Below, in pieces: positions 21,450-48,487 of a stretch of 64,000 nt of DNA. Below the pieces are notes generated by a model. It was not told the DNA's origin and did not search any database. It saw only the letters and a program-made list of their open reading frames with translations. Location of the stretch: IMG/VR virus record IMGVR_UViG_3300029415_000001. The stretch is one strand, 5' to 3'. Source of the stretch: a virus. Lineage: Duplodnaviria > Heunggongvirae > Uroviricota > Caudoviricetes. A program made the translations under genes and the position numbers. The stretch's first letter is position 1; each line of letters starts with the position of its first letter.

Positions 21450-24400
21450 CTATATTTTTCCGCCTACGCCTTTAAACTTCTCAATAAACGAGACTATTTT
21501 CTGGAAAACTGCCTGTTTTTTCGTTTTATATTGCGGATTCAACGGACTAAGTTTTGGTAATGTTTCGTTTAATTCTGTGCCATTTTCGGTGGCATATTCG
21601 CGTTTTAAAGACGTGCGAATATAGCGTTTTGCTGCATCTTCATTGAGATTTTCTTCTTTTATCAATGCTTCTGCTTCACGTTGCTGTTCGCGTTGAGCAA
21701 ACGTAAAGAATGCGTCAATGATGCTGGCTTTGTCCGGTAAATCATCCAGGTTCGTTTGCTGAATAAAATCGACCACCAGGCCCTCTTTCGCCCGGTTCCC
21801 CAGGCTTGAACGAATTAAGCGTTTGACCTCTTCGATCATTTCGCCCTTACCTTTATTTTGTCTGTTGTGTTCGAAAATCAGTCCAAGGATATAATCCAGG
21901 TTTATTTCCTGAGACTTCAGCAAATCGACCTCAAAAACCACGTCATCCCAGTCAGTGGTTGATTTTTCTTTTTTATCAGCTTCTTTCTCGCGGCGCTGCC
22001 AGTCACGAATATCGTTATAGGCAGAACGATAATCCTGAATCTTGCGTTCAGCAGGGAGACGAATCGTTTGCAATTCAGCGAACTTTTCATCATCCACATA
22101 ATGTTCTTCTTTGAATTTTTCTACCGCAACAGGATCGCTAAGATCGATTTGTTGCAGGGCTTTCAGCGTGGCAAATTCATCATAGTTTTGCAGGATGTTC
22201 TCGGCACGCAGGTATTCACCAAACAGTTTAACGAAGTCTTTCTTCTCTTTTTCACTTTCAATACTGGCAGGGTCAGGGAACCGTTGTTCCAGTTCTGAAA
22301 CTACTGCCATAAAGCCGCGCTTAGCTTCACCAGTGGCAGCATCAGTAAAGCCTTCCATATACTCTGCATAACTCTTTTCTAAAACCACATTTTTGGTGTT
22401 TTTGTCACCAAACAGCGTTATGGCATCAATAGTTGAGCGTTCCAGATCCCGGAAAGTGACGATATTACCGAAGGTTTTAGTTGCATCATAAATACGGTTG
22501 GTGCGGGAAAATGCCTGCATCAAGCCGTGAAAACGCAGGTTTTTATCGACGAATAGCGTGTTCAATGTTGGAGCATCGAAGCCAGTTAAAAACATCCCCA
22601 CGACAATTAACAGATCGATATCCTGATTTTTAACCCGTTGGGCTAAATCGCGATAGTAGTTCTGAAAACCGTTACCGTCGGTGCTGAAGTTAGTTTTAAA
22701 ATAGCTGTTATACTCACGAATTGCAGCGTCAAGAAACTCTTTAGCACTGCTGTCCATTGCGCTGGTATCAAAAGTTTCATCGGAAATTTCACCAATGGCA
22801 TTTTGTTCTTCATTAGCGGCAAAGGAGAAGATTGTCGCAACACGCAGCGGTTTATAAGTTGCAGATTTATTAGCGGCTTCCTCTTGTAACCGTTTAAACG
22901 CCGCGTAATAGGCTTTTGCAGCATCCACGCTGCTCACTGCCAACATAGCATTAAAGCCTTTGGAACCTGGGAAAGTACGGTGGGTCTTCTGGCGGAAGTT
23001 ATTCAGAATATATTGCGTAATTTCCTGTATACGCATGGGATGAAGAAACGCCTGCTGATTTTCAGCCGCACTTAGTTTTTTCTCGTCAGTTTCTGTCTCT
23101 AAAGACTTAAACTGTGGCCGCACATCGTTGTAGTCCACCTTGAATTTGAGCACTTTTTCATCACGAATCGCATCGGTAATTACATACGAATGCAATTCAC
23201 GACCAAATACGCTGGCGGTCGTTTCTGAGCCTAAGGCGTTTTCCGGGAAAATAGGTGTGCCGGTAAAACCAAACTGATAATAGCGTTTGAATTTCTTCTT
23301 CAGGTTTTTCTGCGCTTCTCCAAACTGGCTGCGGTGGCATTCATCAAATATAAACACCACTTGCTGATTATATACAGACAGGTCGCTTTCTGCTTTCATC
23401 AGGTTATTGAGTTTCTGAATAGTAGTGACGATAATTTTGTTATCGTCCTTATCCAGATTTCGTTTAAGGCCTGCGGTATTTTCCGAGCCGTTGACGCTGT
23501 CTGGCGAAAAACGCTGATATTCCTTCATGGTCTGGTAATCGAGGTCTTTCCTGTCGACCACGAAGAAGACTTTATCAATAAAGTCCAGTTCTGTTGCCAG
23601 ACGCGCGGCTTTAAAGCTGGTCAGTGTTTTACCAGAACCGGTAGTGTGCCAGATAAAGCCACCGCTTTCGGGGTTAGACCAGTTTTTCGCTTTATAGGAG
23701 CTGTTGATTTTCCATAAGATTCGTTCGGTGGCGGCAATCTGGTACGGTCGCATCACCAGTAGCGTCTGACTACTGTCAAAAACGCTGTAGTTCACCAGAA
23801 CATTCAGCAGAGTATGTTTCTGGAAAAAGGTAGCGGTAAAGTCTTTGAGGTCTTTAATCAGCGTGTTGTCTGATTTCGCCCAATTCATGGTGAAGTCAAA
23901 ACTGTTTTTATCGCGCTTTGTTGTGTTGGCAAAATAACGGGTATCGGTGCCGTTAGAAATGACAAACAGTTGCAGATACTTAAACAGGGAATTTTCGCTG
24001 TTAAAACTCTCTTTACTGTAACGATGTATCTGGTTGAAAGCCTCACGAATCGCCACCCCGCGTTTTTTTAGTTCGATTTGCACCAGCGGTAAACCATTAA
24101 CCAGGATCGTGACGTCATAACGGTTAGCATGAGAACCCGTCTGTTCAAACTGCTGGATAATCTGCACCTTATTGCGCATGAGATTCTTTTTATCTATCAA
24201 ATAGATGTTCTCAAGTCGCCCGTCGTCAAAAATAAAGTCGCAGATATAGTCGATATGGATTTTACGGGTTTTATCCAGAATACCATCGCTGGGGTTGTCC
24301 AGATACTGCTCCGTGAAGCGCCGCCACTCGCTGTCATTAAACATCACACCATTGAGGCTCTGAAGCTGTTCCCGAACATTAGACAGCATTGCCGACTGTG

Positions 24401-24566
24401 ATTTTACGGAAATAAATTCATAACCCTGATTCCGCAGGTCCTGAATCAGTTCACGTTCCAGGTCCGATTCGCTCTGGTAGCTGTCGCTTGTTTGCTCAGC
24501 TTTGATGTACTTATCAAGGACGATAAAGTTATTGGATTCAGCAATGGTGTGTGTTTGATGAGTCAT
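21450..24566 (-). CDS. hsdR: type I restriction enzyme R subunit (EcoR124-like, type IC)
   Basis: 1038 aa; helicase motifs TGSGKT, FDECH, nuclease-like N-terminal region; length matches EcoR124I HsdR as recalled. Confidence 0.9.
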
Positions 24567-24687
24567 AGCGCATCCTTTGTGCCGCCTGGCAAGAGCCGGA
24601 AGGGCGTTAAGAGTGACTTCCGGCGCGTAAAAAATAGTCTATATACTGACCGGATGTTAAGGTGAGCCGGTCTGTAGCAATGGTCAA

Positions 24688-25940
<1,253 letters not shown>

Positions 25941-25944
<4 letters not shown>

Positions 25945-27503
25945 TTCTGCACCTCGCAGCCTTCAATTTCAGCCACAATCGCATCAATATCTTTGCGCAA
26001 TTGGTCGATTTTGCTGACCGTGGTTTTCAGCTCTGCATTCAACTCAGCGATATCGATAATTTCGCGAGTATCTTTCGCTTCCACATAGCTGCTCACCGAC
26101 AGGTTATAGTCATTAGCGACAACGGTCTCAAACGCGACAGATTTCGCCAGATGAGCAACATCTTCCTTGCTGGCAAATACCTGCATAATCTGGTCGATAT
26201 GGGCATCGGTCAGGATATTGTTGTTAGTCTCTTTTTTGAACAGTTCGCTGGCGTCAATAAACTGAACGTTGGTATCCGTTTTATGTTTAGACAGAACCAG
26301 AATGTTTACGGCAATGGTGGTGCCAAAGAACAGGTTCGGAGCCAGTGAAATCACGGTTTCGACATAGTTATTGTCAACCAGATACTGACGGATTTTCTGC
26401 TCCGCGCCGCCACGGTAAAAAATACCCGGGAAGCAGACAATCGCAGCACGACCTTTGGCCGAAAGATAATTCAGTGCATGTAGTACAAAGGCGAAGTCAG
26501 CTTTTGATTTGGGGGCCAGAACGCCAGCCGGGGCAAAACGCTCATCGTTAATCAGCGTCGGGTCATCGCTGCCAATCCATTTCACCGAATACGGCGGGTT
26601 AGAAACGATGGCATCAAACGGTTTTTCATCTCTGAAGTGCGGTTCAGTCAGCGTATTGCCCAGCTTGATATCAAACTTGTCGTAGTTGATGTTGTGCAAA
26701 AACATGTTCATACGCGCCAGGTTATAGGTCGTATGGTTGATTTCCTGACCAAAAAAACCTTCTTCGATGATATGGTCATCAAACTGTTTTTTCGCCTGCA
26801 ACAACAGCGAACCGGAGCCTGCTGCCGGGTCGTAGATTTTGTTAACGTTGGTCTGCCCGTGCATAGCCAGTTGTGCAATCAGCTTAGAGACGTGCTGCGG
26901 TGTAAAGAACTCGCCGCCGGACTTACCGGCATTCGCCGCATAGTTAGAAATCAGGAACTCATAGGCATCGCCGAACAGGTCAATCTGATGTTCGTGGAAG
27001 TCACCAAGTTTTAGCCCTTCAACCCCTTTCAGAACCGCAGCCAGGCGGGCATTTTTATCTTTAACGGTGTTACCCAGGCGGTTACTGGTAGTATCGAAAT
27101 CAGCAAACAAACCTTTGATGTCAGCTTCTGAAGGGTAACCGTAAGCAGAACTTTCGATAGCAACGAAGATGCTGTTTAAATCCGCATTCAGTCTGTCATT
27201 GGTATTTGCTTTCGCAGCTACGTTGCAGAAAAGCTGACTGGGGTAGATGAAGTAGCCTTTGGTTCTGATGGCATCGTCTTTAATGTCATCAGTAATAATG
27301 CCGTCATCAAGTGCCGCATAACAGATGCTGTCATCACCATTTTCCATATAACTGGAAAAATTTTCGCTGATAAAACGGTAGAAAAGTGCGCCCAGAACGT
27401 ATTGCTTAAAATCCCATCCATCGACAGAACCTCTGACATCGTTAGCAATTTGCCAGATTTGACGATGAAGCTCTGCACGTTGTTGAATACTTGTCATTTT
27501 CAT
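25941..27503 (-). CDS. hsdM: type I restriction-modification methyltransferase subunit
   Basis: 520 aa; N6-adenine MTase motifs [10 protein letters not shown] (motif I) and NPPYS (motif IV); ATGA overlap with hsdS. Confidence 0.9.
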
Positions 27504-28492: not shown

Positions 28493-29536
28493 GTGAAAGC
28501 CGTAATTACTCCCTTTGTACAAAAAGAGCTTGGCGTCGCCACATTCAAAGTGGATCAGGAAGTCAGAAAGCTGGTGGAGGCTGGCCGTAAATTTATTATG
28601 GAGCCGGTGCCGCGTGAGTTAATCGAGCACATGGACGACGGCCTCGTTGTTTCCGAGCAAACTATGGCAACAAATGAGGCGTTGCAGCCGTTTTTTAACA
28701 GCGATGAACTGTTTCGCCGTATTGGTGGAATTGACGCGCTGGTGGCGTGGTTGCGTAGGAAAGAGGGTCAATGCCAGGCCGCAGATCGTAGTTGGTGTGA
28801 CAATCATATTGTCCACGCTGAACGAGACAATAGCGCGGTGTTGTTGTGCTGGCATCACGATAACCATTATCGGATGCGTGGTTTTAATGAGCTGAAAGAA
28901 ACGCTGCACAATAATCGCGTTAACTGGATACTGGATGTCGCCCGTCAGGAAATGGGCCTTTCAAATAGCCATGATTTAAGTATTCAGGAGCTGTGCTGGT
29001 GGGCTTTCATGCGCAACATGATGCACCTGATGCCGGAAGAAGTCTGCCGCATATCAATAAATAAGATGAAGGCTACTCCGCAGGATAGCGGACCTCTGAA
29101 AGAGGCGGATATTCGCCCGTATGACGATCGCGCTACAGCATATGTTCAGATGATGGAAGAACGCGCCGCGCCGATGCGTGCAAAAGTATGCCCTGTGGAT
29201 GTTGACTCCGACCCTGGCATGGCGCATTTCAAAATACCAAAACTTCAATCGCTAAAATTGCCCGAGTACATGGATTTTGTGGCTTCCCGTCCATGCTGTG
29301 GCTGTGGAGCTGCGGGAGCTGGCGCTCACATTACGCCTTATATCGTTCGTCATAGTCGATTATGCGCGCATGACATTTATGCTATTCCTCTGTGCCAGTC
29401 ATGCCAGCGTGATATTGAGCGTGACCGCGATAATTGGGAGAAGACGCACGGTAGGCTGGCGATGCATCAACGATTGTTCTTTGATTACGCGCTTGGAGTC
29501 GGCGCTATCACAAGTCATTCGTCGAGCGTTAGATAA
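28493..29536 (+). CDS. hypothetical Cys-rich protein downstream of doc
   Basis: 347 aa ORF; C-terminal [12 protein letters not shown]...CQSCQ. Confidence 0.5.
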
Positions 29537-33397: not shown

Positions 33398-34516
33398 ATG
33401 AGAACGTCATTAGTCACCCGTGAAGAGATGATCGAGGCAATTGAACAGCACACTGCCTGTATCAGTACCAGGGATATACCAGGCGTTATTGCCAACTACT
33501 TCATGATCACCAAACAACTTTACCGGAGAAAGGACAAGAACGCGGTTCACCGTATCCTGTTGTCTGATATCCGCGAATACCTGCTCGAACAGGGTCATCT
33601 GAATTACGTAACCGCCGCAGCCGAAGCACGCAAGGAGGCACACAGAATGAAAGCAACTAACGTTAAATCAGAAAAAATTCATGCACCTTCAGTTCAAGAA
33701 TCGGAGCTGGTGGTTGTTCAGAATCAGTCTGATGAAATTCCCGTTCTGGAATGGCAGGGAGTGCGTGTAGTGACAACCGAGACTCTTGCTAGAGGGTATG
33801 GGACAGAAACAATCCGTATTCGCCAAAATCATCATGAGAACAAAGTACGCTTTGTTGAAGGGAAGCACTTTTTCAAAGTTGAAGGAGAATCATTGCGCGA
33901 GTTGAAGCACAGAGTAGCTTTAAACTACTCTGTAAAAATTGCTCGCAATGTTCGCTCACTCACCCTCTGGACAGAACGCGGCGCAGCCCGCCACGCTAAA
34001 ATGCTCGAAACCGATCAGGCATGGGCATTCTTTGAAAAACTGGAAGACAGCTACTTCCGACAAAAAGAACAGCAACCGATCGCAATCCCCCAGACGCTTC
34101 CTGAAGCCCTACGCCTGGCTGCCGAACTGGCTGAACAAAAGCAACTTCTGGAACAGAAAGCCCACCAGCTAAATCAGCAGCTGGTGGCCGCCGCTCCTAA
34201 AGTCGATTTTGCCGACCGGGTATCAGTAGCTAAAGGGATCCTGATTGGGAATTTTGCAAAGGTTGTTGGACTTAAACAAAACGCGCTGTTTGTCTGGTTA
34301 CGGGAGAACGGCATCCTGATAGCGTCCGGTGGACGTAAAAATGTGCCGTTCCAGCAGTACATCAACGCGGGGTATTTCACGGTGAAAGAAGTGGTGCTGG
34401 ATGATGAAGATGGCTACCAGATACGGTTGACGCCTCAATTAACGGGTAAAGGCCAGCAGTGGTTGACGCGTAAACTGCTCGATGCTGGCTTGTTAAAACC
34501 GGTGGCGGCTGAATAA
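33398..34516 (+). CDS. phage antirepressor-like protein (KilAC/Ant C-terminal domain type)
   Basis: 372 aa; GGAGG RBS; central PVLEWQGVRVVTTETLARGYG (ORF6N/Bro-N-like) and C-terminal QTLPEALRLAAELAEQKQLLEQKAHQL...DFADR (KilAC-type signature). Confidence 0.6.
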   Translation: MRTSLVTREEMIEAIEQHTACISTRDIPGVIANYFMITKQLYRRKDKNAVHRILLSDIREYLLEQGHLNYVTAAAEARKEAHRMKATNVKSEKIHAPSVQESELVVVQNQSDEIPVLEWQGVRVVTTETLARGYGTETIRIRQNHHENKVRFVEGKHFFKVEGESLRELKHRVALNYSVKIARNVRSLTLWTERGAARHAKMLETDQAWAFFEKLEDSYFRQKEQQPIAIPQTLPEALRLAAELAEQKQLLEQKAHQLNQQLVAAAPKVDFADRVSVAKGILIGNFAKVVGLKQNALFVWLRENGILIASGGRKNVPFQQYINAGYFTVKEVVLDDEDGYQIRLTPQLTGKGQQWLTRKLLDAGLLKPVAAE

Positions 34517-38916: not shown

Positions 38917-39585
38917 GTGGCTTTTCTTTTTTGTAGGGGCGCTATGGATAAGAAAATATGCGTTGTTTCGATGAGCGTCGGCAAACCGGCGTCAATGACT
39001 GCCGCATGGATCAACAATGAGCTGATAATGGCTGAGCGGACCAGCTACCCTGAACGCCGCCGCGATATGGAACTCCAGCTGCTGCGCGAATTGCGAGAAA
39101 AAGAGGAAAAGGGTTTTATCGTGCTGGTGGAAGAGGAAAACAGCTTTATTACCGGTCGAGTTGGCCAGCGTGTAAGGTTGCGTGATCCCTTCATGAACGG
39201 CAGACCGGTACTGATTGAAGCAATGCAGATTTACAAGGAACTGGAACGCCAGAAAGCGATCAAGTTACCGCGCAAGGAATCCGGCAAATACATCCTTCAC
39301 CAAAGCATCTTCGATTCCGAACATGACAAAAAAGGCGATGAATTTTTCAACATCAACTGGAGCGAAATAACGACAGAGCACGTTCTGACGTTGTTATGCT
39401 GCTTCGCAACGGAATACAACAACGTTGCAAGCTCCGACTACATCAGGGCAATGGCTGGAGAAGTTGAGGCACGCCAGGAACCATCGTTACTAAGCCCTCT
39501 GATTAACATAATTCGCGGAACCCAAACGCTGGCACAAAAACAGGTGCCTAAGGGAGTATTAACAGGAAAAGGAAATTATCTATAA
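38917..39585 (+). CDS. hypothetical protein at the position of P1 mat
   Basis: 222 aa ORF; G+C composition like backbone. Confidence 0.45.
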   Translation: MAFLFCRGAMDKKICVVSMSVGKPASMTAAWINNELIMAERTSYPERRRDMELQLLRELREKEEKGFIVLVEEENSFITGRVGQRVRLRDPFMNGRPVLIEAMQIYKELERQKAIKLPRKESGKYILHQSIFDSEHDKKGDEFFNINWSEITTEHVLTLLCCFATEYNNVASSDYIRAMAGEVEARQEPSLLSPLINIIRGTQTLAQKQVPKGVLTGKGNYL

Positions 39586-39641
39586 ACGTCAATGCATTAG
39601 GGTATACTTCTCCGTAGAACTATAAGTAAATGGAGTAAGTA

Positions 39642-40949
39642 ATGAGCGAATATGTTGAGTTAGCATACGCTGCCGCTACAAGCAGGCTTTGTCTATTTAC
39701 CGGGACTGGCTTTTCAAAGGCAGTCTCGAACGGTGAAGCTCCAACGTGGAAGGAACTATTAAAAAAAGTTTGCAGCAAAGTTCACAATGCCAAAAAGTTG
39801 GAAGACACGTTATTCCCTGATGATAAACCACCAGCACTGAGTCTTGAAGAAGCCGCACAAATACTATCTTTGAAGCTCAATATTGAGGGTAAGTCGATTT
39901 ATGATGAAATTGTTGACATCATATCTCCAATTCAACTTGGAGAAGGTATATCAAATATAAAAGACTTTTTCCAAAAAAACTCATTCCGTGTCATTACAAC
40001 AAATTATGACAAATTGGCTGAATGCTTGGTTGGAGATGAGAGAGTTCAGTCTATCACTCCAGGATTACCAGTTCCGAAGTATCGTTCTAATGTGAAAATA
40101 TATCATGTTCATGGCTCTATTGACTCACCAAAAAATATGGTTGTCACTTCTGAAGACTACTTTAGGTTTATAAACTCTAACACTTATTTTTCACGAAAAC
40201 TGAGTACAATGCTGCATGAAAATACAGTTGCGATATTAGGATATTCTTTAAGCGACACAAACCTTAAAGCAATTATAAATGATTACAAAACCTTCTCGAA
40301 AGGTAATGCGCTATGCTCTAATATATTTTTCATTTCTCGCAGCAAAGTAAGCCAAGACATGAAGGATTATTATTTTTATTGTTTTGGGATACGAGTAATT
40401 GATAAAACTGAAATAGATTGTTTCTTTGAGCGTCTGAGTAGTAAAATGGTGTTGATTGAAGACATCATGGCAAGAGCCAGAGAAAGTATAAAAAGAGTTG
40501 TTTCAGGGGCTTTTAACTATAGGGATGAATATCTCAAATTAGAGGATTCTTTTTACCAAATAACATCTTCTATTATGTCGGAAGGTTTCGATTGGAGTGA
40601 CAATAAAGTTGTTGGTTTTTTTAAAAGGCTAATCGAACAAAAAAGAGAATTAACAAGAAAAGATGGGGCGTGGGAACAATATGAGCATCTTGCAAAATGG
40701 CTCATATATTTTGGAAGCATCATAGAAATTACTGACACTAAGTATGAAAATGTATATTTAGAGGCAGTCGAATACTCAATGTCCAATATGAGCAAAGAAA
40801 GGCGGTTAGGTTATTCGTGGCATGCTTATAGAGCTTGGGAAACGCGATGGTCTTCAATCATTGCTTCAAATCGATTAATTATAAAAAAACACATCGAAGA
40901 CCTTGGCGTGCTGGATGACGCCAATTCTATAGTGAAAAATATAGTGTAA
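39642..40949 (+). CDS. SIR2-like (sirtuin-fold, predicted NAD+-binding/NADase) protein with uncharacterised helical C-terminal domain; candidate single-gene anti-phage or abortive-infection effector
   Basis: 435 aa; LCLFTGTGFSKAVSNGEAPTWKELL (SIR2 Rossmann start), VITTNYDKLAE, YHVHGS (candidate catalytic His), VAILGYSLSDTNL; gene is markedly AT-rich relative to both flanks. Confidence 0.75.
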   Translation: MSEYVELAYAAATSRLCLFTGTGFSKAVSNGEAPTWKELLKKVCSKVHNAKKLEDTLFPDDKPPALSLEEAAQILSLKLNIEGKSIYDEIVDIISPIQLGEGISNIKDFFQKNSFRVITTNYDKLAECLVGDERVQSITPGLPVPKYRSNVKIYHVHGSIDSPKNMVVTSEDYFRFINSNTYFSRKLSTMLHENTVAILGYSLSDTNLKAIINDYKTFSKGNALCSNIFFISRSKVSQDMKDYYFYCFGIRVIDKTEIDCFFERLSSKMVLIEDIMARARESIKRVVSGAFNYRDEYLKLEDSFYQITSSIMSEGFDWSDNKVVGFFKRLIEQKRELTRKDGAWEQYEHLAKWLIYFGSIIEITDTKYENVYLEAVEYSMSNMSKERRLGYSWHAYRAWETRWSSIIASNRLIIKKHIEDLGVLDDANSIVKNIV

Positions 40950-40971
40950 TTGAAACTCTGCAAACATTTAA

Positions 40972-40991
40972 CGGGCAGCTACAACTGCCCG
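40972..40991. terminator. hairpin between the convergent SIR2-like gene and lxc-like gene
   Basis: CGGGCAG-CTACAA-CTGCCCG followed by A/T-rich sequence. Confidence 0.45.
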
Positions 40992-41000
40992 ATATATAAA

Positions 41001-41249
41001 TCAATCCGCATTCAGGAGCAATGCATTATCTATGATGATTTGCTCCCATTCTTCGAATGCCCGGTCGCGGACGCCCTGGGGAACGCTGTTAGTTTTGAAA
41101 TCGACGACCGTACGCCATTTCCCATCCGGACGGTACATACGCAGAGCTTTACTTCCCCCTTCCCTGCGCACCTCAACGTTATGCTTGTCAGCAAACTCTT
41201 GTAATGCTCGTAGCGTCCCATGCTTTACTGTGTAGTATCGCTTTTTCAA
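41001..41249 (-). CDS. small protein at the position of P1 lxc
   Basis: 82 aa; assignment by position upstream of darB-like gene. Confidence 0.5.
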   Translation of the reverse strand: MKKRYYTVKHGTLRALQEFADKHNVEVRREGGSKALRMYRPDGKWRTVVDFKTNSVPQGVRDRAFEEWEQIIIDNALLLNAD

Positions 41250-41686
41250 GTTTTCTCTCCAGCCTGTGCCAAGGCTTCAACTTCCAAATCGTAAGACTCA
41301 AACTCATAGTCCTGGTCGTCAACTTCTTCAGGCACTGGCAGTAAATGCCAGGCTGAGTATATCTGACCATTATCAAAACGCTCCTGGCTGTAGAGCGTCG
41401 CGGCTATGAGCGTCAGCGCCGGGCGGTCATAACGGTAAATTTTGCGAACGTCACGGTCAACGAGACGACCGAAATTACCATAACCGCGCTCCAGTAATAA
41501 TTTTTTAATTTCCGGCCAGTATGGACCATAGCTGCGGTACAGGCGGGGATTTTTCAGTAATCGCCCGCGTAGCCCTGACAGGAAGAAATCAACGTATTCG
41601 TCTTCTGTCTTTCCTAACAACGCTGTACGGAGTACCGCCTCAAGATATGTTTTATTCGGTTTTATTGTATCAGATAGTGTGGCCAT
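41246..41686 (-). CDS. protein at the position of P1 ulx
   Basis: 146 aa; ATGA-coupled to downstream small gene. Confidence 0.45.
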   Translation of the reverse strand: MATLSDTIKPNKTYLEAVLRTALLGKTEDEYVDFFLSGLRGRLLKNPRLYRSYGPYWPEIKKLLLERGYGNFGRLVDRDVRKIYRYDRPALTLIAATLYSQERFDNGQIYSAWHLLPVPEEVDDQDYEFESYDLEVEALAQAGEKT

Positions 41687-41719
41687 ATTATGCGACGCCC
41701 GGCGAACCGGGCGCTCCTG

Positions 41720-44700
41720 TTATGCGTATTGTTGGATGACGGCCAGAACGTCCGCCACGTTGTGTTTTGTCTCGATAATCCACCAGTTACCCGGGAAATC
41801 GCTGTTCTTCGCCTTCGCTGGCAGCCAGCGAGCGCCGAATTTCGCCTTGATTGCGTCTTTCGCACGGAAAAGAACGCCTTTCATGCCTGAGGCTTCCTGA
41901 AGCCCAAATACCTCGCCAGCGGCGAATTTTGGTGCGTACATCATCTTCAGGTCGGCGGTGGATACGCGATAATTCAGACCAAGAGACTGAGCTATGCTGG
42001 TGGCATCACCCTGTATTGATGATAACTCTTCTTGTTTCTCGTTTCTGGCGGCAATTTCTTCCTCCGTGATGTTGCCAAGGGCCAGGTTTATCCGATCAGC
42101 GTCGGCCTGTTTCTCTTCATCGGTGCGCCCGGCAAGAACCGTGTTAATTCTCTGCAATATCTCCACATGGTTCTTGCGAATGCTGAGCAATTCCGGCGTA
42201 ACCTCGTTAAGGTCCACCAGCCCAAGGATGGCAAGGTCGGAAAACATTGATACCAGGTTGTAGGTCATGCGATAGCTGAGTTGGCCATAGGCTGATGGCA
42301 ACTGCACCGCATCCATTTGATAGGCATCCATAAATTTAGAGCCGTCGTTTACGACATCCGCAATTGCCGGTGTGATTTTCCCTGTGGTGGCGGCCTCCCT
42401 GATTGCTGTTACCCACGATTGAGTCAGCGCGGCGACTGCATGATTCAGATTGGCTTCCCGTTCTGCTGCGATGCGCGCGCTTGCTGCGTCCATTGCCTGC
42501 TTGATCTCGGCTTTATTGCTGTAAATGCCAATAGTGCCAAACTGTGCTGTGGTGATCTCATAATCTGACGCCCGGAACTCATGGGTACCGAAAATGGCAT
42601 TGGTGACCTCAAGTTCAGAATCCCCGTTACGAGTAGCCCCCTGGCTTGTTTTCTCCGGCATTTTTGCGATCGCATCCACTATTTTCTCCTGAATTGCTTC
42701 AGGGGATAACGTATCTCCGTATGACGCGATTACATCGCCATAATTGGAGCCAAACAATTCAACCAGGAATGTTTCTGCCGAACGGATCTGGCGGTTATTC
42801 CCTTCCGACATCATACCAAGCACCCATTTTGCAATTGACGACTTCAGCGCGCCGTCACGGCGATCCGGGTAAACCGCATGCTTCAGTGGGGCCGTATAGG
42901 TACCAACAAAATCAATGCTATAGCCTGACTCTGTAGTCTGAACGCCGTATGAGTCAGTGATTTTGATCATGCCGCGCTGCTGGAAACGGTAGAAATCGTC
43001 ACAGGAAATGATGTCGTTAATCCCGGCGATGGAGACGCCACCACTGATTTTCTGCATAACAGCATCTTCATCGGGAGTTACATCAACCTGTTTATCCAGC
43101 GTCTTCACATCCCAGTTACCCGATTTGGTGCCTTTGAAGGTAAAGATGATCTCCACGTCTGCGCGCTGGCTGTCGAAGTCCAGCGACTTAATGCGAACGA
43201 TATCACCGGCACAATCGTAGTATTGGCCTACACGCCATGAGCGATCGCCGATAACAAGGAACTCATTCGCATGGTTAACCAGATCAGGATCAACATCCAG
43301 AATGCCTTTATTTATTGCATCCTCCACCAGCGGGCGCAGGCGTTTGATATCCGTCGCGGCCTTCTGGGTACGGTTCAATAATTTCTCATAGCGGGAGATG
43401 GCCTGAGAGATATTAGCCTTGCGCTGAATGGCGCTTTTCAACGACGCGCGATACTGTGCTAACAACATACGGTCTGTGTGATGGACACTCCCCCAGCGGG
43501 CCTTCCAGTCTGCGTTATCCGCTGCCTTGGCCATTGCCGCCTGTTTGAATTTAGCTACCTCGGCGGTGGTCTTTTCAAGTTCCGCTTTGCTTCGCTCTAA
43601 TTCAGCGGTAAGTACCTCCACATCCTCGCCAGCTGCGTGCTGCGCCTTGATGTAGTTCTGAAGGTCGATAGTAGCCTGTTCTTTCTGGCGAGCGCGTTTC
43701 GCAGCTTTCGCCTTATCCATTTGAACCTGCATCATTGCCAGACGTTCGCCGTCATCCTTCGCGGTATACATCTGCATTTCGATCATGTCATTGGCGTCGG
43801 CGTTCTCCATTTCTGACTTATCTGAACGGAGGATATCGGAGATCCAGCCTGCTTTACGCTTCAGCGTCTTCAGTCGGTATTCATCGAAAGACCCCTTGCC
43901 GCAGTAGTAGTGAACGCGAACGCTTGCACGGTTGGAACCAACTCGGGCACCGCGACCGTTACGCTGTGCGATACTGGCTGGTGTCCACGGCAACGTCAGG
44001 TGGTGGATATCCGTCGTTCCTCGATGCAGGTTGATACCCACCTCTGCCTTTTTGTTGCAGATGATGATCGGAGTCCGGCCCTCCTGGAAGTCGGCTGCAA
44101 TCTTTTCCAGACCGCCCAACGACATTTCATTTTGCTGCGCGATATAGGCGTCATACAGAGCCATTTGCTCGTTGTATTTCGCTATCTGTGCATCTGTTGG
44201 TTCATCCGGTAACTCTTTCGGCGGTTTAACCGCTTTCAGTTTCTTACCGGTTTTACCTGCCTCGGCAACCGTCTGAGCATTCAGTATCCCCACCTTTGAA
44301 GGTTCAAGGTTAAGAGCATTGCAGATAATGCGCTTGAGCTTCTGGTGCTGCGTTTTTTCATCGGTGAAGATGATTTGCTTACCTTCCGGGAAAAACTCCT
44401 TCAGCGTGGCAATCAGCTTCGCGTATTTGGGCGTAACGGGGTGAGTTACGGTCTGTTCGTCAATGCCAAACCTGGCCAGGCGCTTATTCACTTCCTGCTC
44501 GAACGCTTCCGGAACCTGCAACTGAATAAACTCGCCCTTATCTATCAGGGAGTATTGCGATTGCTGCGTGATTGAATCATCACTGTCGTCGTCTTCGCTG
44601 GTGGCTTGTTTAGGCAAACTGTCCGCCAGCTGCTGCACCGCATCGGCGTACTCCGGCAGGAAACGATAGGTGATCCGGCGATAGTACAGGTCCATGTCAG

Positions 44701-47700
44701 TACATACGCGGTCCATATCCCTGATTATTGAGAAGATCGGACGGGCTTTCTCGTGCTCAATCACGCCGTCTTCATTGACCGAGGTCGTTACGCCATTGTT
44801 GGCTTTGGCCGCCGCTTCCGCCTGCTGACGCAATTCTTCATACGCCGCCAGTTGTTCTTCAGTAAGTGGTGCATCCTGCTGGTGTTCGTCCAGCTCCGGG
44901 ATCTCCACGGTATCCTTAACGTCTTCCGCCGTTTTAAGCGTTACCCAGCGATGGAATATACCGCGCAGCGCATCAAGGTTTTCAAAGCCCACCAGCGCCA
45001 TTTTTTCTTCAACTTCACCGCTGATTTTCTGTACCGTTTCCAGCCTGGTCTTGCCGAAGAATTTAACGAAGTCATCAGGACCGTAGATCCCCATCTTCTG
45101 CCAGTATTCCTTCGGCAGAACATGAGAAAGCATGTTGTATGCATCGATCGGGGTGTTAACGACTGGCGTTGCAGTCAGGAGAACCGGCCCGCGCCCGCCA
45201 TTCTTTTTCATCAGGTACGCGTTTTTAATTGCCATATCTCGCGCCGATTGCGCCACCGCGCTGGTGGGCAGATAGGCCAGTTGTGACGCTTCGCGACCAT
45301 TTTTATAGCTATTGCGGTAGTTGTGACCTTCGTCAGCGATCACACTATCGAAGCCCATATCCTCAAAGTACGGATACTTCTCTGCTTTTTCGGTGCCGGT
45401 ATCTGAATACTCCGACAATACCCGGCGACGCGCAGCCTCTTTGCGGTGGGAGTCGGAGTCCATTGCGCTGGCTACGCGCCCGGCGGCAACGAAGTCATAA
45501 AGCATATCCTGTGCATGCTCATCTACGGTGTCATCACGTAGCGGAATGCGGGCGTATTGTTCTTTGGTAAACACGACTGCACGGTAATTTGAGTGCGGGA
45601 TCGCGTTCATCCGCGCCGTGATAGTGGCTTCATCTGCCAGCTTAAGAGCATCGCGCATAACTGGAGTGCCATCAGTACCAAGAACAGGTTTACCGTTCTC
45701 ATCGAGCACCGGCACCTGGCGAATCTGATCGCCATCCATCAGCACATCAAGACCGACGAACAGGTAGTTACTGAATGCCTCTTCACTCAGGAATTCTTTT
45801 GCTTCGTAATACCAGTTTTCCAGCACTGATTTAGGCACTACATACGCAGTACGGGTGGAGCGACCGTTCTCATAGTTGAACGCCTCAAGCGCCAGCGCGG
45901 TCGTGGTTTTACCCAGCCCGGTGCCGAAGCCAAGGATGCCGCGCCCATCTTCGGACAGTCGGCGCACCTCGCTATTCTGGTAATCAAATGGCTGGCGCTT
46001 ACCGCTTAATCCCTTCAACCCAAGCGGATCGCCAGAGTGTTCATACGGGATATTGCTATTGAACACATCGTTGTATTTGGCAACCAGCTCATCGTAGCGA
46101 TCGTGCGTCTTGATCCACTTATTGAACTGGTCCTCAAGCAGTGCCATCTGCTCGCGGTAGCCGTTCGCCGTCGCGCTATCTTTGCCACCGATACGCGCAC
46201 CATTGAGATACTTTTCCAGCTGTGCCGGGAACCCGGTCGCGTTTTCACCTGATTTACGGTCCCACTCGTAGCGGATCTCGCCTGTTTCTTTATCCTTACG
46301 CTGGACGACACCGTATCGGTGCCCGACGAACAGACCATCACCACCGTGATAGGTGTCAGAAACCATTTCGTCGCCTTCCAACTGCACTGACTGCACATAG
46401 CGCAGATCCGGATAGCCGTTTTCCTGCAAAAACTCCAGAATGACGGAACGGTCGAACCAACGGCTATTGAGCTTAAAGCGGATATTCTCTGCTGGCGTCT
46501 TGATGCGCTTCTCTTCGATCGCTGCCAGCTGATTAAGGACGTTGTTCTTTACTGGACCGTCGGGGAGCGTGGCGAGGAATTCCTGTTTTGGAGCCACTAT
46601 CTCGTTAATGTTGCCGCTGGTGGCGCGGGCGAACGGAACAATCCCGCCATACGGTGAAACCGCAATGCCAGGGGTGCTGGCCAATAAATTAAGCAACTCG
46701 TCATCACTGGCTGGCAGTTCGCCGGTAAACGCAAGGCGGAAATCATCGAGCTGGATTGGATCGCGAGTGAGATCACTGTAGAGATAACGCAGGGTGTCCT
46801 GATAGCTGGTGGAGTCATAACTGGCGCTGGAATCATGCGTAACCAGTTTTCCTGTCAGCTCGTCAGAAATAGTGCCATCCAGCTTAATTGCACCACGGAA
46901 AGCAAACCAGGCGCGAGCACCGCTCCCCGATAATTTCGCTATCGGACCGCGACCGGGGTTACCAAAACGGTCAATCTCTGCCTGCAAACGGGATACCAGA
47001 GAAAGGCGCTGCTGTTCGATTTGTTCAGCACTATGCCCGGCGGCCTTCATGTCCTGATATTCAATTAACATCCGGCCAATCATCGCCCCGCGATACAAGC
47101 GTTCACGGTATTTTTCAGGCTGGCTGTTAATCCAGTCCACCAGCTGCACCATATCGTCGCTGATTGATGTGGTGTACTTATCGCGGACATTTGCCATCTG
47201 GGTAAATGTCATACCGAGACGGCCTTCTGTTGTAGTCAGGTTACGCTGAAGAGCCTCCCAGCTATCCGCGCCATAACTGGCAGCATCAATCTTAAGCTCC
47301 TTACCAGCATCAGCTTCAATCCAGCGACCACCAGCATATTTTTGCCATACGCCATTAATCAGGCGCATTTCCCCTTCATCAACAACATCTGCGGTCGGTG
47401 ACGGTTCAGCCATATCGAGCAAAGACCAGTCGATACGACTTTCGAAACGATGAATCAGCTTCGCTTTAAGAGCCTGGTTATCAATCTGCCCGTCGGCACG
47501 AACCTCAATACGCCCCTGGAATCCCTTCTCCTGGGTGCCATGAACAAACCGGCGGCCGTCCTTTTCAAACCACTTGCCAGAAATAAACGTTGGCCAAAGC
47601 ACATTTGCCGATTCAAGAGTGCTCTCATCCACCAGGGGGATTTTCTCAGCCATCTCTGCCGGATGTTTGCGCATCAGCACCACATCTACGACCGTACTGG

Positions 47701-48487
47701 TCCCGTTTGCGTCAAAAGTACCGGTAGGCAAGCGGTGGGCACCAAGAAATTCAGCTTTACGGGATAGGCGCAGGCGTAACCGCTTCATGTTTGAACCTGA
47801 AACAATGGACGGCGGCACAATCACACACATGAATCCGCCAGGCTTTATCTTGTCCAACATGCGGAGCATGAAGTAAGACCCCATGTCCGTTTCTTCTGCG
47901 TAAGGTTTATCGATGTTGCGTGTGTTATCACGACCACCGAACGGAACGTTACCCACCACATGGTCGAATGAATCGTTAGGCGTGCTTACAGCCAGCTGTT
48001 CAAACGGGGAAATCTGTACGCTGTCTTCCGGGTGTAACAGCTGGTTTATACGACCGGAAACACTGCTGATCTCAGTCGCGGTCATCACCGTACCAACCGG
48101 TTTTGTCTCATTAAAAACGCCGGTGCCCGCCGATGGTTCCAGAGTGTTACCTACGTCCGCACCATAGAGCTTCATGATCTCCCAGACGCCTTCAGCGATA
48201 GGCTTTGGTGTGTAATATTCGGAGACGGACCCGCCAATGCCGCCTTCACCGGTGTACCCAGCCAGGATCTGGCGCTGTTCATCTGTCAGTGTCGCGCCAT
48301 CCACCAGCGAATTAAGCAAATCTATCGCCTTCTGATTCGCCTCCCGGCGTAGTCGGTCATAGCTTTTGCCTTCCACCTTTTCCACGCCGTATCTAATCGG
48401 CGCTCGGTGAGATGTTATTGCCCTAATGTATTTCAATATTTCGCTGACACTTGAACAGCGAAACACCCCCATAGATAGCTTGTTCAT
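41720..48487 (-). CDS. darB: DarB-like defence-against-restriction protein (N6-adenine MTase plus SF2 helicase, virion-injected)
   Basis: 2255 aa; N-terminal LEPSAGTGVF and NVPFG MTase motifs; helicase GFGTGLGKTTTA and VIADEGHNYRN; size matches P1 DarB as recalled. Confidence 0.85.
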   Translation of the reverse strand: MNKLSMGVFRCSSVSEILKYIRAITSHRAPIRYGVEKVEGKSYDRLRREANQKAIDLLNSLVDGATLTDEQRQILAGYTGEGGIGGSVSEYYTPKPIAEGVWEIMKLYGADVGNTLEPSAGTGVFNETKPVGTVMTATEISSVSGRINQLLHPEDSVQISPFEQLAVSTPNDSFDHVVGNVPFGGRDNTRNIDKPYAEETDMGSYFMLRMLDKIKPGGFMCVIVPPSIVSGSNMKRLRLRLSRKAEFLGAHRLPTGTFDANGTSTVVDVVLMRKHPAEMAEKIPLVDESTLESANVLWPTFISGKWFEKDGRRFVHGTQEKGFQGRIEVRADGQIDNQALKAKLIHRFESRIDWSLLDMAEPSPTADVVDEGEMRLINGVWQKYAGGRWIEADAGKELKIDAASYGADSWEALQRNLTTTEGRLGMTFTQMANVRDKYTTSISDDMVQLVDWINSQPEKYRERLYRGAMIGRMLIEYQDMKAAGHSAEQIEQQRLSLVSRLQAEIDRFGNPGRGPIAKLSGSGARAWFAFRGAIKLDGTISDELTGKLVTHDSSASYDSTSYQDTLRYLYSDLTRDPIQLDDFRLAFTGELPASDDELLNLLASTPGIAVSPYGGIVPFARATSGNINEIVAPKQEFLATLPDGPVKNNVLNQLAAIEEKRIKTPAENIRFKLNSRWFDRSVILEFLQENGYPDLRYVQSVQLEGDEMVSDTYHGGDGLFVGHRYGVVQRKDKETGEIRYEWDRKSGENATGFPAQLEKYLNGARIGGKDSATANGYREQMALLEDQFNKWIKTHDRYDELVAKYNDVFNSNIPYEHSGDPLGLKGLSGKRQPFDYQNSEVRRLSEDGRGILGFGTGLGKTTTALALEAFNYENGRSTRTAYVVPKSVLENWYYEAKEFLSEEAFSNYLFVGLDVLMDGDQIRQVPVLDENGKPVLGTDGTPVMRDALKLADEATITARMNAIPHSNYRAVVFTKEQYARIPLRDDTVDEHAQDMLYDFVAAGRVASAMDSDSHRKEAARRRVLSEYSDTGTEKAEKYPYFEDMGFDSVIADEGHNYRNSYKNGREASQLAYLPTSAVAQSARDMAIKNAYLMKKNGGRGPVLLTATPVVNTPIDAYNMLSHVLPKEYWQKMGIYGPDDFVKFFGKTRLETVQKISGEVEEKMALVGFENLDALRGIFHRWVTLKTAEDVKDTVEIPELDEHQQDAPLTEEQLAAYEELRQQAEAAAKANNGVTTSVNEDGVIEHEKARPIFSIIRDMDRVCTDMDLYYRRITYRFLPEYADAVQQLADSLPKQATSEDDDSDDSITQQSQYSLIDKGEFIQLQVPEAFEQEVNKRLARFGIDEQTVTHPVTPKYAKLIATLKEFFPEGKQIIFTDEKTQHQKLKRIICNALNLEPSKVGILNAQTVAEAGKTGKKLKAVKPPKELPDEPTDAQIAKYNEQMALYDAYIAQQNEMSLGGLEKIAADFQEGRTPIIICNKKAEVGINLHRGTTDIHHLTLPWTPASIAQRNGRGARVGSNRASVRVHYYCGKGSFDEYRLKTLKRKAGWISDILRSDKSEMENADANDMIEMQMYTAKDDGERLAMMQVQMDKAKAAKRARQKEQATIDLQNYIKAQHAAGEDVEVLTAELERSKAELEKTTAEVAKFKQAAMAKAADNADWKARWGSVHHTDRMLLAQYRASLKSAIQRKANISQAISRYEKLLNRTQKAATDIKRLRPLVEDAINKGILDVDPDLVNHANEFLVIGDRSWRVGQYYDCAGDIVRIKSLDFDSQRADVEIIFTFKGTKSGNWDVKTLDKQVDVTPDEDAVMQKISGGVSIAGINDIISCDDFYRFQQRGMIKITDSYGVQTTESGYSIDFVGTYTAPLKHAVYPDRRDGALKSSIAKWVLGMMSEGNNRQIRSAETFLVELFGSNYGDVIASYGDTLSPEAIQEKIVDAIAKMPEKTSQGATRNGDSELEVTNAIFGTHEFRASDYEITTAQFGTIGIYSNKAEIKQAMDAASARIAAEREANLNHAVAALTQSWVTAIREAATTGKITPAIADVVNDGSKFMDAYQMDAVQLPSAYGQLSYRMTYNLVSMFSDLAILGLVDLNEVTPELLSIRKNHVEILQRINTVLAGRTDEEKQADADRINLALGNITEEEIAARNEKQEELSSIQGDATSIAQSLGLNYRVSTADLKMMYAPKFAAGEVFGLQEASGMKGVLFRAKDAIKAKFGARWLPAKAKNSDFPGNWWIIETKHNVADVLAVIQQYA

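What the first reader, a model, noticed from the sequence alone, without database searches (positions are those of the whole stretch)
39586..40991. AT-rich single-gene SIR2-like cargo at the P1 res/mod position: candidate undescribed defence gene
Between the cre-ref-mat block and the lxc/ulx/darB block, where canonical P1 (from memory of its map) carries the type III res-mod genes, this element has one 435-aa gene. Its N-terminal ~270 residues carry SIR2-type motifs (LFTGTGFSK...PTWKELL, TTNYD, HVHGS, GYSLSD); the C-terminal ~165 residues are helical with no motif I can place. Hand-counted 60-nt lines give about 30% G+C here against about 55-58% in the flanking mat-like gene, so it looks horizontally acquired. 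No TIR (ThsB), HerA, Argonaute or other known SIR2 partner is adjacent. A phage-plasmid carrying an NAD+-depleting abortive-infection gene in its variable defence slot would be a superinfection-exclusion module.
Basis: partly seen in the sequence, partly recalled or inferred. Interest (0 to 1): 0.85.

Follow-up and report, generated by a model that had tools for sequence, protein, structure and literature searches.

The report
Short SIR2 defence gene in P1 hotspot
A P1-like phage-plasmid carries, where classic P1 has its restriction enzyme, a single 435-residue sirtuin-type gene that most likely protects its host by destroying NAD+ when a rival phage infects; it is an untested, unnamed variant of a known kind of bacterial immune protein.

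Summary
An intact 435-aa ORF (39642..40949, +) fills the whole gap between mat and lxc, where phage P1 carries res/mod.

Residues 1-264 are a SIR2_2 domain whose closest solved relative is the SIR2 domain of DSR2. The two residues aligned with DSR2 N133 and H171 (N121, H157) are invariant in 50 homologues. There is no zinc module.

Residues 265-435 form a confident all-helical repeat domain. It has no specific relative and occurs only in this SIR2 family.

The family (~434 aa, 52-61% identity) is spread across Proteobacteria, has no conserved neighbour, and sits at a prophage edge and next to R-M, GmrSD and STAND genes. It is under purifying selection (dN/dS about 0.15).

The mat-lxc slot is a variable cargo site in about 700 P1-like plasmids. 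Contents include four SIR2 allele classes, type III R-M, the SJ46 RelA/SpoT gene (CapRel), PIN, DUF2971, YaaC, EAL, GNAT, or nothing.

It meets no named system's definition (DSR1/2, ThsA, LmuA, SIR2-HerA, PDC-S25), and I found no paper on it.

Best reading: a self-contained, DSR-like NAD+-depleting abortive-infection protein. Function is untested.

The parts
38917..39585 (+). mat (maturation control), conserved P1 backbone; left boundary of the variable slot
   Evidence: ORF. Homology among P1, RCS47, SJ46 and JL22 runs up to the mat stop codon and breaks right after it. The Omat/LPmat region upstream is 99% identical to P1.
39586..39641 (+). 56-bp leader of the SIR2 cassette, with the ribosome-binding site (GGAG 39632-39635)
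   Evidence: At most 2 mismatches across the 56 bp between any two of the four SIR2 allele classes in P1-like plasmids, including the class with only 58% protein identity. Unrelated to the sequence after mat in RCS47, SJ46, JL22 or P1. No sigma-70-like promoter at 9 of 12 or better and no terminator. Its fold is not significant.
39642..40949 (+). SIR2-family gene, 435 aa, stop codon included
   Evidence: Full-length match to PHROG 7567 (E 3e-233). 708 homologous clusters.
39642..40433 (+). N-terminal SIR2_2 (NADase-type sirtuin) domain, residues 1-264. Catalytic codons N121 = 40002-40004 and H157 = 40110-40112
   Evidence: Pfam PF13289. phmmer against PDB: DSR2 E 1.3e-9 over residues 14-269, with N121 aligned to DSR2 N133 and H157 to H171 (the H171A variant shows Ala at that column). 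Foldseek against the isolated DSR2 SIR2 domain gives TM 0.70. N121, D123, H155 and H157 are invariant in 50 homologues. No CxxC motif.
40434..40946 (+). C-terminal all-helical repeat (HEAT-like solenoid) domain, residues 265-435; proposed sensor or regulatory module
40972..40991 (.). 7-bp GC-rich hairpin between the convergent SIR2 and lxc genes; possible bidirectional terminator
   Evidence: dG -13.4 kcal/mol, z -3.7 on the + strand; also folds on the - strand. It is not followed by a T-run, so the terminator scan did not call it. The 58% allele class and the empty site each have a different hairpin at this place.
41001..41249 (-). lxc (modulator of C1); right boundary of the slot
   Evidence: Homology to all P1-likes resumes at the lxc stop codon.
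41246..48487 (-). ulx (41246..41686) and darB (41720..48487), conserved backbone; context only

Best explanation
The gene encodes a self-contained, single-polypeptide defence-associated sirtuin. The N-terminal SIR2_2 domain (residues 1-264; catalytic N121 and H157) is an NAD+ glycohydrolase of the DSR2/ThsA type. The family-specific C-terminal helical-repeat domain (265-435) keeps it inactive and senses infection, probably by binding a protein of an incoming phage and changing the oligomeric or conformational state of the SIR2 core. Activation depletes NAD+ and aborts infection. This protects the clonal population that carries the P1-like plasmid-prophage from competing phages. The gene is cargo of a recombination hotspot between mat and lxc, in which P1-like elements exchange defence genes.

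Shown: fold, conserved catalytic residues, absence of a Zn module, single-gene status, purifying selection, hotspot location, and association with defence genes. Inferred: NADase activity, the trigger, the abortive-infection outcome, and expression in the lysogen.
For: SIR2_2 domain, 82.8 bits against a 24.5 cut-off. The closest solved relatives are all antiphage NADases: DSR2, KomC and ThsA, plus the FAM118B sirtuin. Query N121 and H157 align with DSR2 N133 and H171, and both are invariant in 50 homologues at 52-98% identity.

There is no CxxC zinc module and no hit to the canonical SIR2 Pfam family. The C-terminal domain is a confidently modelled alpha-solenoid. DSR2 uses a HEAT-like solenoid to capture the phage tail-tube protein and open the NAD+ pocket (PMC11850899).

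No gene is conserved next to seven homologues examined in ten places. Their contexts are typical of defence genes:
- the integrase-proximal edge of an E. coli prophage
- next to type I R-M and GmrSD
- in an island with HNH, DUF4145, DUF87 and AAA_16-TPR genes
- between a NERD-UvrD helicase and a DUF2971 gene

The same slot holds EcoP1I type III R-M in P1. In SJ46 it holds a RelA/SpoT protein that matches PDC-S33 over its full length and is presumably CapRel^SJ46. It is empty in RCS47.

dN/dS is 0.13-0.17. The C-terminal domain accumulates 2.4-6 times more non-synonymous change than the SIR2 domain. Four allele classes (100, 88, 86 and 58% aa identity) sit in flanks that are about 97% identical.
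Against: There is no experimental evidence of any kind, for this protein or for any family member that I could find. It fails the full-length criteria of every named SIR2 defence system.

The C-terminal domain has no specific similarity to the DSR2 MID/CTD or to any sensor of known function. The sensor role therefore rests on analogy of architecture only. The domain is never found on other effectors, so the domain-shuffling signature typical of immune sensors is absent.

No own promoter was detected. The gene lies 56 bp after mat with no terminator between them, so it may be transcribed from the C1-repressed/late mat promoters rather than constitutively in lysogens.

Some homologue contexts are uninformative (Pseudoalteromonas L007; Pantoea L021).
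Confidence: 0.6

Rival explanations
1. It is a phage-serving enzyme of the lytic programme. It would be co-transcribed with mat from the C1-controlled and late promoters. It would then modify (deacylate or ADP-ribosylate) host or phage proteins, or lower NAD+, to favour the element's own development or to exclude co-infecting phages only while the element is lytic. It would not be a lysogen's standing immune sensor.
For: Same orientation as mat, only 56 bp downstream. No promoter-like site (9 of 12 or better) and no terminator between them. The P1 Omat operator and LPmat late promoter are 99% conserved upstream of mat (annotation). RefSeq now names the protein 'NAD-dependent protein deacylase'.
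Against: Homologues sit in non-phage chromosomal islands beside R-M and other defence genes, with no mat-like gene upstream. There is no Zn module or acyl-lysine-type sirtuin signature. The nearest relatives are NADases. The slot is empty or holds unrelated cargo in most P1-likes, so the gene is dispensable for development. In pRHB16-C13_3 a Tn3-family transposon separates an identical gene from the mat promoter, yet the gene is retained intact.
Confidence: 0.13
2. It is an orphan effector that needs a signal or partner encoded elsewhere, like ThsA (gcADPR from ThsB) or KomC (a dITP-derived signal from KomAB). It would not sense phage by itself.
For: The SIR2 domain also resembles ThsA and KomC. 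PADLOC ThsA models hit at E 9e-18.
Against: There is no SLOG/STALD or other known ligand-binding domain; the C-terminus is a helical repeat. There is no TIR or Kom gene nearby in the window or in ten contexts of seven homologues. The two-domain architecture is rigidly conserved, as expected of a self-sufficient unit.
Confidence: 0.1
3. It is a counter-defence or plasmid-competition factor. It would consume or modify an NAD-derived immune signal, or act against other plasmids, in line with the adjacent anti-restriction genes ulx and darB.
For: It lies immediately beside ulx ('Ulx-like anti-restriction') and darB, the defence-against-restriction gene. Phage-plasmids are expected to carry anti-defence genes (PMC11652158).
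Against: Characterised occupants of the same slot are defence systems, not anti-defence. Homologues are chromosomal and lie in defence islands. At 435 aa with an intact DSR2-like catalytic pair, it looks like a host-type effector.
Confidence: 0.06
4. It is a decaying or functionless hitch-hiker.
For: No function has been shown and the composition is foreign.
Against: dN/dS is 0.13-0.17 in both domains. There are 100 invariant columns across 50 homologues. The ORF is intact in all alleles examined.
Confidence: 0.02

Closest known systems
DSR2 (defence-associated sirtuin 2, Bacillus subtilis; PDB 8wkt, 8k98, 8wy8 and others)
   Same: Single-gene system. N-terminal SIR2 domain is the best sequence and structure match (E 1.3e-9 over residues 14-269; TM 0.70 to the isolated domain). 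The catalytic Asn and His are conserved. The SIR2 domain is followed by an alpha-helical repeat region.
   Different: 435 aa against 1005 aa. There is no counterpart of the DSR2 linker, helical-bundle or 11-repeat HEAT-like domains. The C-terminal domain shows no specific similarity to DSR2. The NCBIfam Dsr2 equivalog scores 27 bits against a 1400-bit cut-off. Trigger and oligomeric state are unknown.
PADLOC candidate PDC-S25 (and PHROG 2695)
   Same: Best PADLOC hit (E 3e-29). It is a single-gene SIR2 candidate, and the SIR2 cores are of the same subfamily.
   Different: The best matched stretch covers only profile positions 134-284 of 517; a second, unlisted stretch was also reported. The C-terminal halves do not match, and the profile is about 90 residues longer. 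PDC-S25 is itself only a candidate.
Thoeris ThsA (SIR2-SLOG) and Kongming KomC
   Same: SIR2 NADase core with the same motifs.
   Different: No SLOG/STALD domain, no ThsB/TIR gene, no KomA/KomB genes.
Lamassu LmuA with SIR2 effector
   Same: Profile of similar length (433). The N-terminal SIR2 part matches at E 5e-17 over residues 13-222.
   Different: The C-terminal half does not match. There is no LmuB (SMC) or LmuC neighbour in the window. The one SMC_N-like gene seen near a homologue (L009) is 4.4 kb away and is not conserved.
CapRel^SJ46 and EcoP1I res/mod (other occupants of the same P1 slot)
   Same: Same genomic position between mat and lxc. CapRel is likewise a single polypeptide that joins a toxic effector to a C-terminal sensor that binds a phage structural protein.
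   Different: Unrelated proteins and chemistry: tRNA pyrophosphorylation and DNA cleavage, against NAD+ hydrolysis.
Human FAM118B / FAM118A non-canonical sirtuins
   Same: Weak but significant similarity of the SIR2 domain (E 3e-4, residues 16-214). They are described as similar to bacterial antiphage sirtuins (PMC12700824).
   Different: Vertebrate proteins that form filaments. Nothing here shows filament formation.

Membership tests
Pfam SIR2_2 (PF13289) | Score above the gathering threshold of the family HMM | tested here: met
   82.8 bits against 24.5; profile positions 3-140 of 141.
NADase-type defence sirtuins (DSR/ThsA class) | Catalytic Asn and His equivalent to DSR2 N133 and H171 | tested here: met
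   N121 and H157 align to them (including the H171A variant) and are invariant in 50 homologues.
NADase-type defence sirtuins (DSR/ThsA class) | NAD+ hydrolysis on infection and phage resistance | not testable with these tools
   Needs plaque assays and NAD+ measurement.
Canonical sirtuin protein deacylases (Pfam SIR2, PF02146) | Match to PF02146 and a Cys4 zinc-binding module | tested here: not met
   Only PF13289 is reported at E up to 1. Six Cys in total and no CxxC motif.
DSR2 (NCBIfam NF041819 equivalog) | Full-length match at or above 1400 bits; about 1000 aa with MID and HEAT-like CTD | tested here: not met
   27.4 bits, SIR2 region only. 435 aa. The C-terminal domain is not DSR2-like.
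DSR1 (NCBIfam NF041818 equivalog) | Full-length match at or above 1400 bits | tested here: not met
   29 bits, residues 112-209 only.
Thoeris (ThsA + ThsB) | SIR2 fused to a SLOG/STALD domain, with an adjacent TIR-domain ThsB | tested here: not met
   ThsA profiles match only the SIR2 core. No Pfam domain in residues 265-435. Neighbours are mat, lxc, ulx and darB.
SIR2-HerA / SPARSA (SIR2-APAZ + pAgo) | Adjacent HerA ATPase or short Argonaute | tested here: not met
   None in the window neighbourhood. None is conserved near homologues.
Lamassu (LmuA-SIR2 + LmuB) | Full-length LmuA match and an adjacent SMC-like LmuB | tested here: not met
   The profile matches residues 13-222 only. No SMC gene is adjacent.
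PADLOC PDC-S25 candidate | Near full-length match to the 517-528-position profile | tested here: not met
   Best stretch covers profile positions 134-284 of 517. The C-terminal halves are unmatched.
PHROG 7567 | Full-length profile match | tested here: met
   E 2.8e-233, positions 1-434 of 434; category 'unknown function'.
P1 mat-lxc variable (defence) slot cargo | Insert bounded exactly by the mat stop and the lxc stop, with alternative cargo or an empty site in relatives | tested here: met

The most novel reading that the evidence does not exclude
This is a minimal (~435 aa) self-sufficient sensor-effector sirtuin. Its family-exclusive helical-repeat domain would directly recognise a conserved phage protein. 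The four allele classes that replace each other behind an identical 56-bp leader would be specificity variants. Together with R-M, CapRel, PIN, DUF2971, YaaC, EAL and GNAT cargo, it would define a so far undescribed defence hotspot of P1-like phage-plasmids, comparable to the P2/P4 hotspots. The gene may be wired to the C1/late-controlled mat transcript.
Probability: 0.4. Interest if true: 0.65.

Novelty: new variant of a known kind. Interest (0 to 1): 0.55.

Why it matters
If it is active, this would be one of the smallest single-protein SIR2 immune systems, less than half the size of DSR1 or DSR2. That makes it a tractable model for how a short helical-repeat domain gates a sirtuin NADase and what it recognises.

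It is carried by P1-like phage-plasmids that are common in clinical and farm E. coli and Salmonella. I estimate roughly 15% of about 700 P1-like plasmids carry a SIR2 allele in this slot, extrapolating from an even-step sample of 60. It could therefore affect phage-therapy host range and competition between mobile elements.

The mat-lxc slot itself is a ready-made source of candidate defence genes (YaaC plus a partner, DUF2971, EAL plus HTH, PIN, GNAT) next to two validated systems.

Tried and rejected
- **Partner genes.** I looked for a conserved neighbour in ten contexts of seven homologues and found none.
- **C-terminal domain by sequence.** Pfam at E up to 10, and a profile against all PDB sequences, gave nothing.
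- **C-terminal domain on other effectors.** An exhaustive HMMER search of 1.84 billion representatives found it only in this SIR2 family. Two weak hits to glycoside-hydrolase/laminin-G proteins are spurious.
- **Promoter and terminator scan of 39300-41300.** No + strand promoter and no canonical terminator were found. The two - strand promoter-like sites lie inside the gene and number fewer than in shuffled sequence.
- **Leader RNA fold.** Not significant.
- **Deposited phage genomes.** tblastn and megablast found no full-length homologue.
- **tRNA at the E. coli prophage locus.** A scan found none, so I make no claim about the attachment site.
- **Literature.** One search was swamped by 'short dsRNA' hits. 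Searches failed on term length.
- **Positive selection in the sensor domain.** Pairwise dN/dS is about 0.2, so it is not supported at this resolution.
Full report

Yes. A 435-codon ORF runs from 39642 to 40949 on the + strand. A GGAG lies six bases before the ATG.

The gene is AT-rich. It has 35.8% G+C and GC3 of 31.9%. mat has 47.8%, lxc-ulx 48.7%, darB 52.2% and the whole window 48.0%.

**2. Where does it sit?**

The window is a P1-like phage-plasmid. cra, cre, c8, ref and mat are collinear with P1, and the Omat/LPmat control region is 99% identical. In P1 (NC_005856) the interval between mat (ends at 3468) and lxc (9750-9998) holds res, mod and IS5.

In the window, similarity to P1, P7, RCS47, SJ46 and JL22 ends at the mat stop codon (39585). 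It resumes at the lxc stop codon (~41001-41003). Its neighbours are mat, lxc, ulx and darB. No TIR, HerA, Argonaute or SMC gene is adjacent.

**3. What is the protein?**

Residues 117-252 match Pfam SIR2_2 (PF13289) at 82.8 bits against a cut-off of 24.5. The canonical SIR2 family is not matched. There are six cysteines and no CxxC motif, so the protein lacks the zinc module of deacylase sirtuins.

Against PDB sequences the best hit is DSR2 (E 1.3e-9, residues 14-269). KomC, ThsA and FAM118B follow. In those alignments N121 falls on DSR2 N133. H157 falls on H171, which is visible as Ala in the H171A entries.

An AlphaFold2 model built on 50 homologues has a mean pLDDT of 86. Foldseek places the DSR2 SIR2 domain first (E about 1e-11; TM 0.70 to isolated SIR2 chains), then ThsA and KomC.

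**4. The family.**

The search of 5.8 billion proteins returned 708 clusters. Beyond the close E. coli alleles, there are full-length proteins of 431-444 aa at 52-61% identity in:
- Xenorhabdus, Pantoea, Klebsiella, Vibrio, Halomonas and Pseudoalteromonas
- Idiomarina, Marinobacter, Pseudomonas, Stutzerimonas, Paracidovorax and Delftia

An alignment of 50 has 69% mean column identity and 100 invariant positions. These include TTNYD, H155/H157 and GYSL-D, and in the C-terminal domain W344, Q346, Y347, W353, G390, S392, W393, W399, W403, N410 and R411.

A profile of the C-terminal domain was run against 1.84 billion representatives. It finds only 96 clusters. Every true hit is a protein of about 405-480 aa, or a fragment, with the domain at about 265-435. 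The eight most divergent true hits scanned all carry SIR2_2 N-terminally. The two domains are thus an obligate pair, and the C-terminal domain is not shared with other effectors.

**5. Is it a single gene, and is it defence-associated?**

Ten contexts of seven homologues share no neighbour.
- In E. coli chromosomes the 59%-identical homologue follows a 392-aa integrase-like gene. It lies at the edge of a prophage block (S24 repressor, YfdP, DUF2303), next to response-regulator and ccm genes.
- In Marinobacter it abuts type I R-M genes and a GmrSD_N protein.
- In Halomonas it lies in an island with HNH, DUF4145, DUF87, FRG and AAA_16-TPR genes.
- In Stutzerimonas it lies between a NERD-UvrD helicase and a DUF2971 gene.
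- In Paracidovorax it lies near PDDEXK_4 and AAA_23/SMC_N genes.
- The Pantoea and Pseudoalteromonas contexts say little.

**6. The slot is a cargo hotspot.**

The flanks match 709 PLSDB plasmids, mostly non-mobilizable E. coli and Salmonella replicons. Those I opened are 94-146 kb, and most type as IncY. In an even-step sample of 60 of them, the interval holds one of the following:
- SIR2
- RelA/SpoT
- YaaC plus a 169-aa partner
- EAL (sometimes with an HTH gene)
- DUF2971
- GNAT
- PIN
- nothing: RCS47 has 39 bp between mat and lxc
- inserts too long to be joined by the search (res/mod-type)

The SJ46 occupant is a 373-aa RelA/SpoT protein. It matches PADLOC PDC-S33 over its full length. SJ46 is the phage that encodes the validated CapRel^SJ46 (PMC10118264). 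That this is the same gene is my inference.

So two occupants of the slot are proven defence systems. The DUF2971 and PIN occupants give partial hits to PADLOC candidates.

**7. Allele turnover.**

SIR2 genes in this slot fall into at least four classes: identical protein (L001), 88% (L014), 86% (L016) and 58% (L015). The flanks stay about 97% identical.

The 56-bp leader (39586-39641) differs at no more than two positions between any two of the four classes. Divergence of the 58% class starts just after the start codon. On the 3' side each class has its own hairpin before lxc. In the window this hairpin is at 40972-40991, with dG -13.4 kcal/mol and z -3.7.

Pairwise dN/dS is 0.13-0.17 overall, about 0.1 in the SIR2 domain and about 0.2 in the C-terminal domain. 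The C-terminal dN is 2.4-6 times higher. This is purifying selection with a faster-evolving C-terminus. It is not demonstrable positive selection.

The gene (at 80% nt identity or more) is in 58 PLSDB plasmids and in 63 of 5,426 complete E. coli genomes. Of 66 places in those genomes, 65 are on plasmids. No deposited phage genome carries a full-length homologue.

**8. Expression.**

No sigma-70-like site (9 of 12 or better) and no canonical terminator lie between mat and the gene. The leader does not fold significantly. Read-through from the C1-controlled Pmat and late LPmat promoters (P1 annotation; conserved here) is therefore possible. So is a weak promoter in the leader. This is unresolved.

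One hint bears on it. In pRHB16-C13_3 a Tn3-family transposon and integron sit upstream of an identical gene, cutting it off from the mat promoter, and the gene is still intact.

**9. Most likely mechanism.**

The protein joins a DSR2/ThsA-type SIR2 core, with both catalytic residues intact, to a helical repeat. In DSR2 a HEAT-like solenoid captures the phage tail-tube protein and enlarges the NAD+ pocket (PMC11850899).

I conclude it is most likely a self-contained NAD+-depleting abortive-infection protein whose C-terminal domain senses infection and gates the NADase (confidence 0.6).

Shown: fold, residues, single-gene status, selection, hotspot location and defence contexts. Inferred: activity, trigger, phenotype and timing of expression.

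Rivals, with confidences:
- a lytic-programme enzyme co-expressed with mat (0.13)
- an orphan effector that needs an unlinked signal (0.10)
- a counter-defence or competition factor (0.06)
- a functionless passenger (0.02)

**10. Comparison with what is known, and novelty.**

It works like DSR2 or DSR1 (a single-protein SIR2 sensor-effector) but is not a member. The NCBIfam Dsr1 and Dsr2 equivalogs score 29 and 27 bits against 1400-bit cut-offs.

It is not ThsA (no SLOG, no ThsB). It is not LmuA (no LmuB; only the N-terminal half matches). It is not SIR2-HerA or SPARSA (no partner). It matches the PADLOC candidate PDC-S25 only over the SIR2 core.

It is PHROG 7567, 'unknown function', and RefSeq annotates it generically. 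Ten literature searches found nothing on this family or on a mat-lxc hotspot in P1-like elements. Reviews of phage-plasmids list R-M, PrrC, CBASS, Rst, Mokosh and CRISPR, but not SIR2.

I rate it a new variant of a known kind. A specialist would not be surprised to find a SIR2 gene in a prophage hotspot. Its small size, its exclusive sensor-like domain, the allele series and the hotspot itself make it a worthwhile experimental target.

Interest: 0.55.

Noticed in passing
window 21450-27503 (- strand): A complete type I restriction-modification operon: hsdM 25941..27503 (N6_Mtase, E 1e-120), hsdS 24688..25944, and hsdR 21450..24566 (HSDR_N, SWI2_SNF2, EcoR124_C). The element lacks P1's type III res/mod but carries a type I system elsewhere.
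   Followed up: partly
window 39586-39641; L014 1445-1500; L016 1445-1500; L015 1186-1241: The 56-bp leader before the SIR2 start codon is almost identical in all four allele classes, even where the proteins are only 58% identical. Divergence begins right after the ATG. Either recombination breakpoints cluster at the start of the gene, or the leader is conserved for expression. Unexplained.
   Followed up: partly
L001 (CP057733.1) 1-5518, upstream of an identical SIR2 gene: In pRHB16-C13_3 a TnAs3-family transposon with a class 1 integron (intI1, dfrA12) sits immediately upstream of the SIR2 gene. The match to the window only begins at about 39192, inside mat. The SIR2 gene is retained intact without the mat promoter region.
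   Followed up: no
L012 (OP279344.1, 'P1 isolate del res del mod') 1143-2768; L019 943-1632: A P1 record labelled as res/mod-deleted carries two hypothetical genes in the slot. They have the same size and layout as the EAL-domain cargo seen in many P1-like plasmids. It is unclear whether that record reflects an engineered or a natural replacement.
   Followed up: no
L018 985-1995 (P1-like slot) and L024 9407-10237 (Stutzerimonas, next to the SIR2 homologue): DUF2971 proteins turn up both as alternative cargo of the P1 mat-lxc slot and directly beside a chromosomal homologue of the SIR2 gene. The slot version gives partial hits to PADLOC candidate PDC-S31.
   Followed up: no
L017 978-2527 (NZ_CP138414.1): A two-gene cargo, a YaaC family protein (346 aa) plus an overlapping 169-aa gene, occupies the same slot in several plasmids and has no PADLOC match. 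It is a candidate for an unrecognised system.
   Followed up: no
window 33398-34516 and 28493-29536: An Ant-like antirepressor (ANT + ORF6N domains) and a DUF968 protein. Both appear to be ordinary P1-type backbone genes.
   Followed up: no
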